Positions 17,909 to 47,656 of a DNA stretch of 64,000 nucleotides are shown here, piece by piece. Origin of the DNA: Lentimonas sp. (GTDB lineage: Bacteria > Verrucomicrobiota > Verrucomicrobiia > Opitutales > Coraliomargaritaceae); assembly GCA_047627755.1 (NCBI GenBank), contig JBLHTV010000001.1, positions 241 to 64,240 on the forward strand, in the 5' to 3' direction. A program made the translations under genes and the position numbers. The number at the start of each line of letters is the position of its first letter. Position 1 is the stretch's first letter. The notes beneath the pieces were generated by a model. The model saw nothing but the letters and a program-made list of their open reading frames with translations, did no database searches and was not told where the DNA came from.

Positions 17909-18619
17909 ATGCGCACATCCAAGCCGACTCAGTCCCCTAGGGGGTTTACACTTATCGAACTCCTGACAGTCATCGCCATTATTGCGATCTTGGCTGGGAT
18001 CCTCATTCCCGCGATAGGCAAGGTGCGCAAAAAGGCCGCTACAGTTAAGGCCGTCAACAATGTCCGCCAAATCGGCATGGCCAACTCACTCTATTCGCAA
18101 GAAAACAATGGTAAGATCATCGGGCAAGAGGAAGGAAAGTTCATGAATGCGATGCAGAACATCGCCGAATACATCTCCACGGAAAAAGAGCTCAATTGGG
18201 ATCAACAAATCGCCACACTAGCCCTAACGAATGACCCTAATGTGCCGGAAAATATGATCAGAATAGGAGGCCTCCCCTTCACGTATGCGATCAATTCTGT
18301 ATTCAACCAGAAATATGGACGCTCGGTCGATGGCAAAGCAGCATGGAAGCCAGCCGCGCAACAAAGCTCTAACCAACGACGCATGGCAGAGTTCGATTAT
18401 CCTTCGGACACGATCTATGCCGTCAGTGGCAGTTATCAATTAACGGTATCCGCAGCGGCAAACGCTTCGCTCCTTCAGGAACCAAGCGCTCGACAGTCAA
18501 TTTTCTATTTACACGGCAACAATGATAGCACACCAGCAGTCTTCTTAGACGGCCATAGCGAGCTAATCACCTATCCGATCGATCCTAAGCAGATCAATCC
18601 ACGGGAACGCACGAAGTAG
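17909..18619 (+). CDS. Prepilin-type N-terminal cleavage/methylation protein with C-terminal H-X9-DG-type motif (DUF1559-like)
   Basis: [30 protein letters not shown] and [15 protein letters not shown]. Alternative start at 17876. Confidence 0.9.
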
Positions 18620-18770
18620 CCAAATCCAGACAGTGTGCGACTAAAGGCGCAAAGAGTCGCAACATTGATCATTGATCGGTTGCAAATTACCGTCTGGGAA
18701 ACATAATTCGCAGTGTGAATCACGCAGCATTCGCGAAACAGTATAGTATACCTCTATCTACACATAGAAT

Positions 18771-19550
18771 ATGCACACCTCATTCGACCTTTATCCCAGT
18801 TATTTACGGCGCTTTAACAATGATATAGCAGCCAATCGTCCACTACGTTTACGCTACGATCTCCATGCGATGCGCAACTATGAGTATCGTAACGAAGGTG
18901 GTAAACGCGTCGGACCGTTTCCTCAAGTGCGCCCTGAGGGCACTCTTGAGATCCAAAGCACCACAAACTCCATCGGCAAAAATTCGATGACCGTGAAGCA
19001 TTCTCGCGAATGGTCGACATGGACTGGACAAGCGCCTGCCTCCAAACAAGACATTACGGCGAAAATAGACTACGCAGACGATGCCATCGGCACACTGCAA
19101 CACTGGCAAATGAGCTATGCCTCCACCCCCATACTGCCAGTGAAATCCTATCGCTATGATAAGCTAGGACCGATGCAAAAGCACGGTCGAGTTAAGGATG
19201 GAACCATCGAATTGACCGCTGCCAGCAAAGGAACGTCGAATATGGAGCTCGCCTCCTCCTCCCACGTCACATCGCTATACACGCTGATCGAACGCTTTCA
19301 GCGCTCCACGATCCAACCTACTACAGTCGATTATCTAGACGACCTGACCATGCTCCGACCGGGCCTAGAAATCACCCCACTGCCCGATGATACGATCGAG
19401 ATCGAAGGCGTGAAGACAAACGTTCATGGATACGCACTCGTTGGGCCAGCGATTCTGCCTCTGTTCTTTTGGATGGATACGCACTCCAACGTGCTCGCTG
19501 TCATCGGCCGCAACGTCGCCTACACACTAACAGAAGCTCAAAACGTCTAA
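18771..19550 (+). CDS. Hypothetical protein, beta-rich, no obvious signal peptide
   Basis: 259-aa ORF that fills the gap between genes and is co-oriented, ending 13 nt before the Tat sulfatase. Confidence 0.75.
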   Translation: MHTSFDLYPSYLRRFNNDIAANRPLRLRYDLHAMRNYEYRNEGGKRVGPFPQVRPEGTLEIQSTTNSIGKNSMTVKHSREWSTWTGQAPASKQDITAKIDYADDAIGTLQHWQMSYASTPILPVKSYRYDKLGPMQKHGRVKDGTIELTAASKGTSNMELASSSHVTSLYTLIERFQRSTIQPTTVDYLDDLTMLRPGLEITPLPDDTIEIEGVKTNVHGYALVGPAILPLFFWMDTHSNVLAVIGRNVAYTLTEAQNV

Positions 19551-19563
19551 TTACGCTGTTTTC

Positions 19564-20961
19564 ATGTTACACTCTACAGACTCAAGCAGTTTCTCCCGAC
19601 GCGACTTCCTAAAGGCCGGCAGCGCACTCACAATGTCGGCTTTTTTCACGCACTCAGATGCTGCCCCAAGTGTAGCACTACAAAAGACAGGCCCCGACAC
19701 TCGGCCCAATCTCCTCTTTCTTAATCTGGACCAACTCAGCCACATGGCCTTGAGCTGCCACGGGAACCCACACCTCCAGACACCTAATATCGACCGCTTG
19801 GCCGCGCGCAGTGTTGATTTCTCAAAAAGCTACACGCCAGACCCTATCTGCTGCCCTGCCCGTGCCAGTTGGGCCACTGGTCACTTTCCAAGCGAGAATA
19901 ATGTAGCAGTCAACAACCGCCCCTTGCGCGACGATCTACCCGATTATGGTCAATGGCTGGGCAAGAATGGCTATCAAACCGTGCACATCGGCAAATGGCA
20001 CGTGCCGGGGCGCCCCTTACATAAGTCCTTTCAACTTGTGCCACACAATTCACACCCACAGGGCGAATACAGCGACAACCTCGTCGCTCTCTCATTTGAA
20101 ACCTTCCTCGCCAACCGCGATCAAACACGCCCCTTCTTCGCCCAAGTCGGGTTAATGAACCCACATGACTGTGGCAATGCCCCCCGCACTTCGGAACACC
20201 CGTTCCCGTTTCCACACCTAAAGGATCAGCTACCGCCGTTCCCACCCAACTTCGACTTCGACCGCCGTGAGCCCGAGCAGCTTAAGCAGATGCACAACGG
20301 CCTCATTAAATTTACAGAGAACTGGACGGAAGAGAACTGGGGGCATCAAGCCTGGCTCTACTACCGGATGGTTGAAATGGTCGATGTCAATGTAGGCTAT
20401 ATTCTCGATACATTGGAGCGATCTCCCGAACATGAGAATACAGTCATCATTTTCAGCTCCGACCATGGCGATGCAAACGGCTACCATCGCATGCTGTTTA
20501 AAGATAATTTCTACGAAACGTCCTCACGCGTGCCGACCATGATCTGCTTCCCCGGAAAAGTGCCAGAGGGCGTCGTCGATGAGACCCACTTGGTATCAGG
20601 TTTAGACTTCTTCCCTACGCTGTGTGACTATGCCGGGATCGAAGCTCCAAAGGGGCTGAAAGGCCTAAGCCTTCGTCCACTCCTTGAAGCAGAACCTACG
20701 ACAGAGTGGCGCGAATATTTGCACGCACAGAGTAAGGCGACCGGACGGATGGTCGTAGATGATCAGTATAAGTTCATTCGATATTATGGTTCGGAGACCA
20801 CACAGCTCTTCGACTTGAAGAATGATCCATGGGAAACCGTCAATCTTGCATTTGACGATGAACATCAAGCGGTCTGCAAGCGAATGGCAACTGAAATTGA
20901 TCGCATGGAACAGACACTCGACAACGTTGATTTACCCGATGCCCTTATGCGGCGAACCTAA
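19564..20961 (+). CDS. Tat-exported S1 sulfatase (choline-sulfatase-like fold)
   Basis: SRRDFLK twin-arginine signal; CCPAR, GKWH, NPHD and SDHG motifs. Confidence 0.92.
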   Translation: MLHSTDSSSFSRRDFLKAGSALTMSAFFTHSDAAPSVALQKTGPDTRPNLLFLNLDQLSHMALSCHGNPHLQTPNIDRLAARSVDFSKSYTPDPICCPARASWATGHFPSENNVAVNNRPLRDDLPDYGQWLGKNGYQTVHIGKWHVPGRPLHKSFQLVPHNSHPQGEYSDNLVALSFETFLANRDQTRPFFAQVGLMNPHDCGNAPRTSEHPFPFPHLKDQLPPFPPNFDFDRREPEQLKQMHNGLIKFTENWTEENWGHQAWLYYRMVEMVDVNVGYILDTLERSPEHENTVIIFSSDHGDANGYHRMLFKDNFYETSSRVPTMICFPGKVPEGVVDETHLVSGLDFFPTLCDYAGIEAPKGLKGLSLRPLLEAEPTTEWREYLHAQSKATGRMVVDDQYKFIRYYGSETTQLFDLKNDPWETVNLAFDDEHQAVCKRMATEIDRMEQTLDNVDLPDALMRRT

Positions 20962-20991
20962 CCTCTAATATCACCCCAACCCCAATAAATT

Positions 20992-46608: not shown

Positions 46609-46708
46609 GATATTTATTATAAAAGGAAAATAGGACAGTCACTGAAGTGATCAACTGTGGACACCATCGAGTCCAAAGGCAGCCCATCAATACCTGCTGC
46701 TAAATGAT

Positions 46709-46778
46709 ACTTAACCTGATCGATAACACCCATGACAAGGTTATCCCATATATCTACGATCCTACAAACACTTTAGCC
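46709..46778 (-). promoter_or_regulatory. Conserved promoter/activator site, copy 2
   Basis: 49/70 ungapped identity to 35503-35572. Located ~100 bp upstream of the GH42 start. Confidence 0.75.
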
Positions 46779-46884
46779 ATGCCCAATAACACAGATATCA
46801 TCTCTTACACTCTACGAGAAACTCCCCTAATCCCGATGCAATCCAAGTATACGATACACAGATAAGGACTCACACCACTGAGAC

Positions 46885-46920
46885 AAAAAAAGGCCGCCTG
46901 CCACATGTGCAGACGACCTT
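46885..46920 (-). terminator. Rho-independent terminator of the PEP-CTERM gene
   Basis: Minus strand AAGGTCGTCTGC-7nt-GCAGGCGGCCTT then a T run, 25 nt after the stop codon. Confidence 0.85.
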
Positions 46921-46945
46921 ACCCTATATAACCCTGAAATATAAA

Positions 46946-47656
46946 TTATTTGCGACGGCGAACCATGACCGCAGTCAGTGCGAGTGCGCCTGCAATCAAA
47001 GCATAAGTGCCTGGCTCAGGAATCGCAATTATTTGAACACCTCCTAATACTGCTGTTCCAGCTGAGGTGTTACTAAATACAACATCGAAACTGTCTGCCG
47101 TTAGACCACTGAAAAGAATAGAATCACCACCGACAGAGCCCGTCCCAGCCCATGATAGTGTAGTCCCTCCAATTGTCACATCTCCAGCTGTGGCGGTAGC
47201 GTTGAACCCCACGTAGACAATCACATCATAAGTCGATGCAAAAGAATTAACATCACTAAATGCTACCGCTGGGTTTCTAGTAGTACCGGCAAAGGCGGCA
47301 ATGCCCGCCTTATACGCTGTATTGTTCAAGCCAGCATCAAATAAGGTCTGCACATTATTGAAGACAGAAGTTGCATCAACCGAGGATGTAACCCCATTAC
47401 TATCCGTCAGGTTCAACTGGTCACCAGCGGAAACAATTATGTTGTTCCAATTAGACACGTCAGTAGTAGTGCCCAAACCGTCATAATCAACGAGGCCAAA
47501 TGTTTCTGCGCCAGTAAGGTTCTCAGAAAAACGGCTTCCGTTGGCTCCATTAATGTCAAGTCTTACAAAGTTGGCGCTAATTATGTCTTGCGCACTCGCA
47601 GAAGCAACCAGCCCAAGGGCCAGCAGTGTAGTAGTTAGGAGTATTTTTTTATTCAT
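46946..47656 (-). CDS. PEP-CTERM surface protein (exosortase substrate)
   Basis: Signal peptide; C-terminal [25 protein letters not shown]. Confidence 0.95.
   Translation of the reverse strand: [236 protein letters not shown]

What the first reader, a model, noticed from the sequence alone, without database searches (positions are those of the whole stretch)
17909..47656. Polysaccharide locus with pilin-type and exosortase surface proteins instead of SusC/D
Seen: 57 kb of CAZymes and sulfatases with no TonB-dependent receptor. Instead there is an N-methyl-pilin/H-X9-DG protein leading an enzyme operon (17909), a 1207-aa PilX-like protein with a partner (39984-44330) downstream of GH42, and a PEP-CTERM protein (46946). 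Established: these families are expanded in PVC bacteria and have no defined function. Inference: locus-specific, exchangeable pilus subunits or tips that capture the glycan for a shared T4P/T2SS machine, which would be an undescribed uptake system.
Basis: partly seen in the sequence, partly recalled or inferred. Interest (0 to 1): 0.8.

Follow-up and report, generated by a model that had tools for sequence, protein, structure and literature searches.

The report
Glycan-locus pilus-tip-like gene pair in Verrucomicrobia
A seaweed-sugar digestion locus of a marine verrucomicrobium carries, instead of the usual outer-membrane receptor genes, a small pilin-like gene and a conserved pair of genes for a giant pilus-tip-like protein and its secreted partner, a pair that recurs next to many different sugar-degrading gene sets and may mark how these bacteria handle polysaccharides.

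Summary
About 57 kb of the window is a sulfated-galactan (agar/porphyran-type) locus with 11 sulfatases, two GH2, a GH42 and a beta-agarase homologue. It has no TonB/SusCD genes. It encodes a 247-aa prepilin, a 1207-aa protein with a GspK/PilX-type N-terminus plus a 235-aa partner, and one PEP-CTERM protein.

These are three unrelated families in three transcription units, not one system.

The new result concerns the 1207-aa gene and its partner. They form a conserved two-gene module (partner directly downstream in 57 of 79 related loci). The family has no Pfam domain, has many copies per genome (at least 597 relatives), and has a hypervariable middle. Outside one core-like clade, 40 of 56 copies lie within three genes of a CAZyme or sulfatase, against 0 of 12 in that clade.

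My best reading is a locus-specific tip module for a shared pilus or pseudopilus. Glycan capture is only slightly favoured over enzyme export.

Nothing here shows glycan binding, fibre assembly or uptake. Pilus-dependent glycan uptake (Akkermansia MUL) and substrate-induced pseudopilins inside glycan loci (Verruconatronum) are already published. I class the finding as a new variant of a known kind.

The parts
17876..18619 (+). 247-aa prepilin-type protein (alternative start 17909), G|FTLIELL leader, C-terminal H-x11-DG variant of the H-X9-DG motif. First gene of a same-strand enzyme run.
   Evidence: PF07963, TIGR02532 above cut-off; sequence; homologues with H-x9-DGH; PDB pilins match the N-terminal helix only; TIGR04294: 0 hits for the window copy; 2 of 9 homologues pass.
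18771..19550 (+). 259-aa protein with no family match, directly after the prepilin gene.
   Evidence: no Pfam or NCBIfam hit. The published V. alginivorum operon has the same layout: PILIN, then a 298-aa secreted hypothetical, then an enzyme.
40707..44330 (-). 1207-aa giant minor-pseudopilin-like protein. GspK/PilX-type N-terminus (G|FALVIAL, no Glu at +5), conserved N and C parts, hypervariable middle (about residues 471-770).
   Evidence: (AF2 pLDDT 87, pTM 0.89).
39984..40691 (-). 235-aa partner. Sec signal peptide followed by two beta-sandwich (Ig-like) domains. Starts 15 bp after the big gene's stop codon.
   Evidence: a family member at +1 on the same strand in 57 of 79 loci; pLDDT 85; PepT1/2 extracellular domain, E 9e-9 to 3e-6.
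44551..46608 (-). GH42 beta-galactosidase, directly upstream of the big gene (220-bp gap).
   Evidence: PF02449, E 7e-137.
46946..47656 (-). 236-aa PEP-CTERM protein. Probably a separate transcription unit.
   Evidence: PEP-CTERM above cut-off; hairpin after its stop codon; PEP-CTERM genes only mildly enriched next to the big gene.
46890..46920 (-). Terminator-like hairpin (12-bp stem, 7 G-C pairs, T-run) 26 nt after the PEP-CTERM stop codon.
   Evidence: The total number of terminator-like sites in the region is at chance (8 found, 7.8 expected), so this rests on position and stem strength only.
31549..33252 (+). 567-aa beta-agarase homologue. Points to an agar/porphyran-type substrate.
   Evidence: 6xj9 E 2.4e-40; 4bq2 E 6.9e-34. 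No Pfam hit.
56404..57819 (+). MFS_2 (GPH-type) sugar transporter. The likely inner-membrane importer of the locus.
   Evidence: PF13347, E 1.6e-64.
8481..12856 (-). Sugar-acid catabolic genes: PfkB kinase, KDPG/KHG aldolase, enolase-superfamily enzyme, aldehyde dehydrogenase.
   Evidence: That this set matches the 3,6-anhydro-L-galactose pathway is recalled, not tested.
19564..26361 (+). Four sulfatases (19564-20961, 21916-23301, 23348-24805, 24805-26361) and an AraC regulator (20992-21894).
26377..31583 (+). GH2 (26377-29085), SASA esterase (29110-30699), BD-FAE esterase (30702-31583).
48463..61402 (+). Sulfatases 48463-50226, 50390-53275, 57911-59572 and 59669-61402, and GH2 53463-56375. 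The remaining three sulfatases are at 12977-14704(-), 33295-34692(-) and 38515-39942(+).

Best explanation
The window is a SusCD-less utilisation locus for a red-algal sulfated galactan in a marine Opitutales/Puniceicoccales-like verrucomicrobium. The three 'surface' genes belong to three unrelated families in separate transcription units.

The informative one is the pair at 39984-44330. It encodes a giant protein whose first ~80 residues look like a GspK/PilX-type minor (pseudo)pilin, that is, a prepilin-type leader without Glu5. A secreted tandem beta-sandwich partner follows it.

Shown: this pair is a conserved module. The family has many copies per genome and a hypervariable middle. Copies outside one core-like clade lie inside CAZyme or sulfatase loci of many specificities. 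The core-like clade includes one copy directly preceded by three minor-pilin genes, in an order that resembles gspH-I-J-K.

Inferred: each glycan locus supplies its own cap or tip (giant pilin plus partner). This would be mounted on a filament built from shared minor and major subunits by a type IV pilus or type II secretion machine encoded elsewhere. The small H-X9-DG-type prepilin at 17876 would be a locus-specific, substrate-induced subunit of the same or a similar filament.

Speculative: the variable middle and the partner bind the cognate glycan and hand it to the cell (capture or 'fishing' before periplasmic degradation and MFS import).

My odds: locus-specific tip module of a pilus-like filament, about 0.55. 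Glycan capture for uptake as its job, about 0.3-0.35. The stated confidence is for the whole chain of inference.
For: Locus content and absence of TonB/SusD. Beta-agarase homologue.

Pilin-type N-terminus:
- Sequence G|FALVIAL.
- NF037980 GspK match at residues 28-104. 8 of 24 relatives match GspK and 8 of 24 match TIGR02600.
- AF2 model with a 59-residue N-terminal helix, and beta-strands at both ends flanking a very large insert.
- Atlas leads to HHH_3 and T2SSK clusters.

Conserved pair: a partner-family member at +1 on the same strand in 57 of 79 loci.

16 assemblies have 2 or more copies among the best 80 loci. Copies from one genome are scattered over the tree.

Variable middle: identity to the window protein is 0.07 in residues 471-770, against 0.29 and 0.31 in the N and C parts, for 61 distant relatives.

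Glycan context:
- GH, PL, CE or sulfatase within three genes in 41 of 79 loci. 0 of 12 in the core-like clade, 40 of 56 elsewhere, Fisher p 4e-6 (hand tally, computed).
- Enzyme families differ between loci. Some clades keep their context across genera (GH16; DUF5722+GH78; GH2+LacI).

Cassette link: L063 has three prepilins best matching Verru_Chthon D, B and C directly upstream of its big gene and partner.

Literature:
- Pili and periplasmic complexes needed for mucin uptake in Akkermansia, and a type IV-like pilus locus conserved in marine Akkermansiaceae that take up fucoidan (PMC13174399 and PMC12418764, passages).
- Dextran binds planctomycete fibres (PMC5394234, passages).
- No SusCD in Verrucomicrobiota MAGs, and outer-membrane transport described as open (PMC8857213, passages).
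- A 251-aa pseudopilin inside a glycan locus detected only on alginate (PMC13274419, passages and Table S3 parts).
Against: - No recognisable carbohydrate-binding domain: 0 of 40 family members has any Pfam hit, and the window protein has none.
- Likeness to GspK is limited to the N-terminus. hhalign against E. coli GspK aligns 22 columns at probability 4%. Foldseek gives 3ci0_K only E 0.14, with 0 hits at E<=1e-3. All NCBIfam scores are far below cut-off.
- No pilus or secretion machinery, prepilin peptidase or further minor pilins in the window, nor among the nearest neighbours scanned in the 79 loci.
- 38 of 79 loci show no CAZyme or sulfatase within three genes (three of them ambiguous).
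- There is no random-locus control, so the enrichment is measured only against the core-like clade, which comes from other lineages.
- The neighbour tally was entered by hand.
- The only published interpretation of pseudopilins inside such loci favours enzyme export by type II secretion.
- The proteome cited had one replicate per treatment.
Confidence: 0.4

Rival explanations
1. Export, not import. The giant GspK-like protein and its partner, together with the small pseudopilins, are locus-specific parts of a type II secretion pseudopilus. They would give the shared secreton specificity for the enzymes encoded beside them and push these folded CAZymes and sulfatases across the outer membrane.
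For: The only family likeness is to GspK, the tip of the type II secretion pseudopilus. The L063 gene order resembles gspH-I-J-K. The V. alginivorum authors propose that type II secretion exports the alginases of the cluster holding the induced pseudopilin (PMC13274419, passage). An Akkermansia sulfatase with only a Sec signal reaches the surface 'by an unknown mechanism' (PMC13524802, passage). No carbohydrate-binding domain was found.
Against: From recall, I know of no type II secretion system with many alternative GspK-type tips, and a 130-kDa tip is about four times the size of GspK. The V. alginivorum genome also has a canonical 380-aa GspK with its secreton, detected at low level on two of the three substrates (Table S3 part 3). 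A separate standard tip therefore exists. Likeness to GspK does not extend past the N-terminus.
Confidence: 0.25
2. Adhesion. The module forms the adhesive tip of a pilus that attaches cells to algal surfaces or polysaccharide particles. It would be co-regulated with the enzymes but take no part in transport.
For: Tip-located large proteins of type IV pili acting as adhesins are known (PilY1; recalled). The partner's fold weakly resembles Bacteroides fimbrial and adhesin proteins (4gpv E 7e-4; Mfa2 5nfi E 3.6e-3). The variable middle is beta-rich.
Against: Those fold matches are weak, and the top matches are generic tandem Ig-like domains. Adhesion alone does not explain dozens of paralogues each tied to a different enzyme set. 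It also overlaps with the capture model.
Confidence: 0.12
3. Not a filament at all. The pilin-like N-terminus only anchors the proteins in the inner membrane after prepilin-peptidase processing. The large domains would act in the periplasm as locus-specific scaffolds or binding proteins for oligosaccharides or enzymes.
For: A single genome can hold very many such prepilin-type proteins (67 homologues of one pseudopilin; 89 'PILIN' mentions in Table S3). That is more than any known pilus uses. Verrucomicrobiota accumulate glycans in the periplasm (PMC13174399, passage).
Against: The L063 arrangement with three minor pilins points to a tip complex. The induced small pseudopilin is as abundant as major envelope proteins (0.513, against OmpH 0.521), which suits a structural subunit.
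Confidence: 0.13
4. Chance neighbourhood. The three genes merely lie in a large glycan locus because such loci and such gene families are both very common in these genomes.
For: There is no random-locus control. 38 of 79 loci have no CAZyme or sulfatase within three genes. PEP-CTERM and prepilin genes are scattered at roughly 5% and 2% of all neighbour ORFs.
Against: 0 of 12 against 40 of 56, p 4e-6. Some clades keep the same enzyme context across genera. A relative shows substrate-specific induction of a pseudopilin inside a glycan locus.
Confidence: 0.1

Closest known systems
GspK, the tip minor pseudopilin of type II secretion (with GspH/I/J), and PilX-type minor pilins of type IV pili
   Same: Prepilin-type N-terminus with Gly at -1 and no Glu at +5. 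Long N-terminal helix. A globular part formed by a large insert between N- and C-terminal beta-strands. In one relative (L063) it is preceded by three minor-pilin genes.
   Different: About four times larger. No T2SSK Pfam match. hhalign and Foldseek find no significant likeness beyond the N-terminus. Many copies per genome. Usually encoded without other pilins and next to CAZymes. Has a conserved non-pilin partner.
Verru_Chthon cassette proteins A-D (NCBIfam TIGR02600, 02598, 02599, 02596)
   Same: Same phyla. A large 'A' protein with a pilin-like N-terminus. UniRef and Atlas names for relatives. 8 of 24 relatives give weak TIGR02600 hits. The L063 neighbours best match D, B and C.
   Different: All scores are far below the curated cut-offs and cover only the first ~60 residues. 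The window protein gives no TIGR02600 hit. In 77 of 79 loci no run of prepilin genes is present (L063 has one directly upstream; L017 has three on the other strand). The downstream partner is not part of the named cassette as I recall it. No paper in the library uses the name.
Akkermansia mucin utilisation loci (MUL) with a type IV-like pilus
   Same: Same phylum. A pilus-related system needed for uptake of a sulfated, fucosylated glycan into the periplasm, and proposed for fucoidan in marine relatives (PMC13174399 and PMC12418764, passages).
   Different: MUL2 is one conserved locus (amuc_1099-1102: PilM, an archaeal-type pilin and two uncharacterised genes), not a many-copy locus-specific module. 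I found no sequence link and did not test one. The A. muciniphila relative of the big protein (L056) lies in the core-like clade without CAZyme neighbours.
Pseudopilins embedded in glycan loci of Opitutales (Verruconatronum alginivorum pgaptmp_000050)
   Same: A ~250-aa prepilin-type protein leading an enzyme operon, followed by a secreted hypothetical, as at 17876-19550 here. Many paralogues. Detected only on the cognate substrate.
   Different: Homology to the window's 247-aa protein was not tested, because I held no sequence of that genome. That cluster holds no giant GspK-like gene in the part of the table I read.
Alternative minor-pilin/PilY1 tip sets of Myxococcus type IV pili
   Same: Precedent for several interchangeable tip complexes that serve one pilus machine.
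   Different: Three full sets, each with four minor pilins and PilY1, and not tied to catabolic loci. Recalled only.
SusC/SusD-type polysaccharide utilisation loci of Bacteroidota
   Same: Co-localised CAZymes, sulfatases, a regulator and a transporter for one glycan. The proposed tip would play the role of the surface glycan-binding proteins.
   Different: No TonB-dependent transporter or SusD here. The mechanism would be unrelated.

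Membership tests
[quoted passage not shown] | N-terminal G|F-x-x-x-E motif and hydrophobic helix, scoring above the curated cut-off | tested here: met
   PF07963 31.6 bits (cut-off 21.2). TIGR02532 33.1 bits (cut-off 16.3). Sequence RG|FTLIELL.
H-X9-DG-CTERM prepilin-associated domain (TIGR04294): the 247-aa protein | C-terminal H-x9-DG motif recognised by the model | tested here: not met
   No hit for the whole protein at E<=0.01 or for its C-terminal half at E<=10. 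The sequence has H-x11-DG. Homologues have H-x9-DGH; 2 of 9 pass the cut-off and 3 more hit weakly. It is a diverged relative rather than a scoring member.
DUF1559 / SBP_bac_10 (PF07596; accession recalled): the 247-aa protein | Pfam match to the globular domain | tested here: not met
   No such hit at E<=5.
GspK, type II secretion minor pseudopilin (NF037980; Pfam T2SSK): the 1207-aa protein | Full-length match above cut-off, including the globular alpha-domain | tested here: not met
   22.1 bits against a cut-off of 130, residues 28-104 only. No T2SSK Pfam hit. hhalign aligns 22 columns at probability 4%. Foldseek 3ci0_K E 0.14.
GspK/PilX-type minor pilin: the 1207-aa protein | Prepilin-like leader ending in Gly, hydrophobic N-terminal helix, no Glu at +5 | tested here: met
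   Sequence ...SKQG|FALVIALSLMAF. AF2 helix at model residues 10-68.
Verru_Chthon cassette protein A (TIGR02600): the 1207-aa protein | Score above the curated cut-off (332.3 bits) | tested here: not met
   No hit at E<=0.01 for the window protein. 8 of 24 relatives hit weakly, best E 3e-8. The L063 copy scores 28.5 bits, N-terminus only.
Verru_Chthon cassette | Adjacent genes for the pilin-like proteins B, C and D | tested here: not met
   The only other prepilin gene in the window is 22 kb away. A run of three prepilin genes lies directly upstream only in L063; L017 has three on the other strand.
PEP-CTERM / exosortase-sorted proteins: the 236-aa protein | C-terminal PEP motif, transmembrane helix and basic tail, above cut-off | tested here: met
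   PF07589 22.4 bits (cut-off 20.7). TIGR02595 22.0 bits (cut-off 16). Sequence ...[25 protein letters not shown].
PEP-CTERM / exosortase system | An exosortase gene in the genome | not testable with these tools
   None among the 41 ORFs scanned in the window. The rest of the genome is not available.
SusC/SusD-type PUL | Adjacent TonB-dependent transporter and SusD-like lipoprotein | tested here: not met
   None among the 41 ORFs at E<=1e-3.
Akkermansia MUL pilus system | Homology or synteny with amuc_1099-1102 or the MUL1 genes | not tested
Only passages of PMC13174399 were read.
Type IV pilus or type II secretion filament component (any of the three proteins) | Processing by a prepilin peptidase and incorporation into a filament | not testable with these tools
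   This needs experiments. No machinery genes are in the window.

The most novel reading that the evidence does not exclude
Verrucomicrobiota and Kiritimatiellota solve the 'no SusCD' problem with a modular pilus. Each glycan locus encodes its own tip receptor (giant GspK-like protein plus tandem-Ig partner) and often its own small pilin. These plug into one shared retractile type IV pilus or type II secretion-like machine, which reels the cognate polysaccharide into the periplasm. That would be a functional analogue of SusD and the surface glycan-binding proteins, built on a filament.
Probability: 0.25. Interest if true: 0.85.

Novelty: new variant of a known kind. Interest (0 to 1): 0.6.

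Why it matters
How Verrucomicrobiota and their relatives bind large sulfated polysaccharides and move them across the outer membrane without SusCD is described as open in the literature (PMC8857213, passage). These bacteria are major degraders of recalcitrant algal glycans and of gut mucin.

A conserved two-gene module with no known domains marks individual glycan loci. It offers a concrete and genetically tractable candidate for the missing surface component, whether its job turns out to be capture, export or adhesion. It could also serve as a new marker for finding glycan loci in these phyla.

If the module is shown to be irrelevant, the pilus-based uptake idea would narrow back to the single conserved MUL-type locus.

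Tried and rejected
- Complex prediction of the big protein's insert (model residues 310-1090) with the mature partner gave no verdict (score 0.00). It counts neither for nor against binding.
- Whole-chain Foldseek of the big protein against the PDB: 0 hits at E<=1e-3.
- PDB profile search with A2: 0 hits at E<=1.
- hhalign of A2 against E. coli K-12 GspK aligned only the N-terminal 22 columns.
- Pfam on 40 family members: nothing.
- ESM Atlas gave name-level leads only. The nearest cluster with a Pfam family for the partner was AlgF, at a chance-level score of 0.82.
- PDB sequence search of the 957-aa ORF 14713-17586: no hit.
- The 227-aa secreted protein (34748-35431) is unrelated to the PEP-CTERM protein or to the partner family.
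- The promoter and terminator scan was at chance overall.
- I considered PEP-CTERM genes as a third member of the module and rejected this. They are 39 of 854 neighbour ORFs, with only mild enrichment at -1/-2 (12 of 130 against 27 of 724, p 0.011).
- Literature searches that found nothing on the specific association:
  - 'Verru_Chthon cassette': 0 papers.
  - Lentimonas + fucoidan + pilus: 0 papers.
  - Verrucomicrobiota + minor pilin + glycan: 1 paper, which from its title and abstract looks unrelated.
  - DUF1559 + polysaccharide: 3 papers, seen as a listing only.
I reran it with a faster alignment.

Full report
**1. What is in the window**

A Pfam scan of 41 ORFs splits the window in two. 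Positions 1-6442 hold housekeeping genes and two transposases. From about 6944 to the end (57 kb) there is a dense glycan locus:
- 11 sulfatases.
- Two GH2, one GH42, and SASA and BD-FAE esterases.
- PhoD, an AraC regulator, an MFS_2 sugar transporter and a SulP permease.
- A block of aldehyde dehydrogenase, enolase-superfamily enzyme, PfkB kinase and KDPG aldolase.

The 567-aa ORF at 31549-33252 has no Pfam hit but is a clear beta-agarase homologue (6xj9 E 2.4e-40). The catabolic block resembles, from recall, the 3,6-anhydro-L-galactose pathway. Together these point to an agar/porphyran-type sulfated galactan as the substrate. None of the 41 ORFs matches a TonB-dependent receptor, Plug, SusD, pilus or secreton machinery, or exosortase family. 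Homologues of the 1207-aa protein place the organism among marine Opitutales/Puniceicoccales-like Verrucomicrobiota.

**2.

(a) 17876-18619 encodes a 247-aa prepilin.
- Its leader is G|FTLIELL, and PF07963 and TIGR02532 score above their cut-offs.
- Its C-terminus has H-x11-DG, and TIGR04294 does not score.
- The 11 homologues found in related loci align with a clean H-x9-DGH. Nine of them were scanned; 2 pass the TIGR04294 cut-off and 3 more hit weakly. It is a diverged member of that expanded family.
- Solved pilins match only its N-terminal helix.

(b) 40707-44330 encodes the 1207-aa protein, and the 235-aa partner starts 15 bp after its stop codon.

(c) 46946-47656 encodes a PEP-CTERM protein. 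A strong terminator-like hairpin follows it 26 nt after the stop codon, so it is probably a separate transcription unit from GH42 and the big gene.

**3. The giant protein**

- Its N-terminus (...SKQG|FALVIAL, no Glu at +5) is of the GspK/PilX type. The only family hit is GspK over residues 28-104, far below the cut-off.
- The AlphaFold model of residues 21-1207 is confident (pLDDT 87, pTM 0.89). It shows a 59-residue N-terminal helix, beta-strands near both ends, and between them a helical part, a beta-rich part and a mixed part.
- Nothing solved resembles it significantly. Foldseek gives 0 hits at E<=1e-3, with GspK 3ci0_K at E 0.14. The PDB profile search gives 0 hits. hhalign against E. 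coli GspK aligns 22 columns.
- Relatives are labelled 'Verru_Chthon cassette protein A' or 'PilX' by some sources. TIGR02600 hits are weak, N-terminal only, and absent for the window protein.
- Residues 471-770 are hypervariable. Identity to the window protein is 0.07 there among 61 distant relatives, against about 0.3 in the flanking parts.
- None of 40 family members has any Pfam domain.

**4. The partner**

The partner family is very divergent (mean column identity 15%). The model is still confident (pLDDT 85). It has a signal peptide followed by two beta-sandwich domains. The best matches are the two-lobed extracellular domain of PepT1/2 (E 9e-9 to 3e-6). Weaker matches are Bacteroides fimbrial and adhesin proteins and a CBM26. 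This describes a fold, not a function.

**5. Related loci**

The best 80 loci are all from Verrucomicrobiota or Kiritimatiellota.

I called ORFs myself. An iterative profile of the partner finds a family member directly downstream on the same strand in 57 of 79 loci. The pair is therefore a conserved module.

Sixteen assemblies have two or more copies among these 80 loci alone. A run of three prepilin genes lies directly upstream only in L063, and L017 has three on the other strand. In L063 the three best match Verru_Chthon D, B and C, though weakly.

Neighbours at positions -3 to +3 (ORFs of 100 aa or more, partner excluded) were scanned against Pfam: 320 proteins, plus 35 already labelled by homology to window proteins. 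By my hand tally, 41 of 79 loci have a GH, PL, CE or sulfatase there, and 47 of 79 if sugar transporters and regulators are counted. The enzyme families vary widely:
- GH1, 2, 5, 10, 13, 16, 26, 38, 42, 43, 57, 78, 94, 95 and 130.
- Heparinase-type and other lyases.
- Several esterases.

No pilus, secreton or TonB-receptor gene appeared among these neighbours. One OprD-type porin did.

**6. Tree** (FastTree, 71 proteins of 1000 aa or more, 973 columns)

- One clade of 12 is almost all Verrucomicrobiales. It includes the Akkermansia muciniphila MAG copy and L063. It has no CAZyme neighbours and branches roughly by taxonomy, like a housekeeping copy.
- Elsewhere 40 of 56 copies have CAZyme or sulfatase neighbours (0 of 12 against 40 of 56, Fisher p 4e-6).
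- Copies from one genome, such as the five from one Rariglobus MAG, are scattered, so the paralogues are old.
- Several well-supported clades keep the same enzyme context across genera: GH16; DUF5722+GH78; GH2+LacI; and a GH37-like/heparinase/SSF set. Other GH16 and GH94 contexts are scattered.
- The window's protein groups with two tandem copies in Thalassobacterium maritimum.

Caveats: FastTree support only. The core-like clade comes from different lineages than most CAZyme-linked copies. There is no random-locus control.

**7. PEP-CTERM and small prepilins around the module**

By a motif test, PEP-CTERM proteins are 39 of 854 neighbour ORFs. They are mildly enriched at -1/-2 (12 of 130 against 27 of 724, p 0.011). 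Glu5 prepilins are 18 of 854 with no preferred position. Neither is a fixed part of the module. Homologues of the 247-aa prepilin occur within 10 kb of the big gene in 11 of the 80 loci.

**8. Literature** (what I saw is stated for each)

- PMC8857213, passages: no SusCD in Verrucomicrobiota MAGs, and other outer-membrane transporters are left as an open question.
- PMC5394234, passages: gold-labelled dextran binds pili-like fibres of planctomycete crateriform structures.
- PMC13174399, abstract and passages; PMC12418764 and PMC13524802, passages: mucin products accumulate inside Akkermansia in a process that needs MUL genes encoding pili and periplasmic complexes. A type IV-like pilus locus (amuc_1099-1102) is conserved in marine Akkermansiaceae that take up fucoidan. 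One sulfatase with only a Sec signal reaches the surface by an unknown route.
- PMC13274419, passages and Table S3 (part 3 of 59, plus the first 30 of the 89 'PILIN' mentions):
  - In Verruconatronum alginivorum the alginate-induced cluster contains a 251-aa PulG-like pseudopilin with 67 homologues in the genome.
  - It is the most abundant protein of that cluster on alginate (0.513) and was undetected on the two other substrates.
  - It precedes a 298-aa secreted hypothetical and a lyase.
  - Most of the small PILIN-type proteins I saw were undetected.
  - The authors suggest type II secretion exports the alginases.
  - There was one replicate per treatment.
- The primary MUL paper (Davey et al. 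2023) is recalled, not read.

**9. Interpretation**

The shown facts fit a locus-specific accessory of a pilus-like filament better than chance neighbourhood. They do not tell capture from export or adhesion. I favour capture slightly, for three reasons. The phylum shows pilus-dependent uptake. A 130-kDa variable tip with a non-pilin partner recalls type IV pilus tip complexes more than a secreton tip. A canonical GspK exists separately in at least one relative. Against this, no carbohydrate-binding domain is recognisable, and the only published view favours export.

**10. Not checked**

- The rest of this genome, for machinery genes, an exosortase, or TonB receptors just outside the window.
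- The closed metagenome and viral collections.
- MUL protein sequences.
- Most of Table S3 of PMC13274419.
- Supplements of the other papers.

Noticed in passing
window 31549-33252 (+), with 8481-12856 (-): An ORF with no Pfam hit is a clear beta-agarase homologue (6xj9 E 2.4e-40). The upstream aldehyde dehydrogenase, enolase-superfamily enzyme, PfkB kinase and KDPG aldolase look, from recall, like the 3,6-anhydro-L-galactose pathway. The locus probably targets agar/porphyran-type red-algal galactan.
   Followed up: partly
window 3866-5110 (-) and 5540-6442 (+): Two transposase genes (Mutator family; DUF772/DDE_Tnp_1) sit at the left edge of the glycan locus, between it and housekeeping genes. 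This could be a trace of mobility or rearrangement of the locus.
   Followed up: no
window 14713-17586 (-): A 957-aa secreted protein with no Pfam, NCBIfam or PDB sequence match. Homologues occur near the big gene in L038 and L053. It may be an undescribed glycoside hydrolase; that idea comes only from reading the sequence.
   Followed up: partly
window 34748-35431 (-), 35652-36725 (-), 18771-19550 (+), 63314-64000 (+): Four more ORFs have no family match. The last has a weak Agarase_CBM hit (E 0.022). The 227-aa one is unrelated to the PEP-CTERM protein or to the partner family.
   Followed up: partly
window 50390-53275 (+): A 961-aa protein in which the sulfatase domain covers only part of the chain (best stretch residues 363-522, two stretches). 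It may be a fusion or a multidomain sulfatase.
   Followed up: no
L001 9950-18924: Thalassobacterium maritimum carries two big-gene/partner pairs in tandem. They are the closest genome relatives of the window's pair.
   Followed up: partly
L004, L011, L018, L022, L030, L033, L054, L062: Large proteins with PATR (autotransporter-type) repeats often lie one to three genes from the big gene. By my motif test five of them (L004, L011, L018, L033, L062) also have a PEP-CTERM tail.
   Followed up: no
L046 and L065 (same contig OZ223521.1, about 15 kb apart): Two big-gene copies of the same tree clade lie close together on one Ruficoccus contig. Each is next to different enzymes (GH37-like/MFS, and GH130/heparinase/SSF).
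   Followed up: no
whole window: GC skew is negative in 31 of 32 2-kb windows whatever the coding strand, and AT skew is mostly positive. This fits one replication arm without a switch.
   Followed up: no
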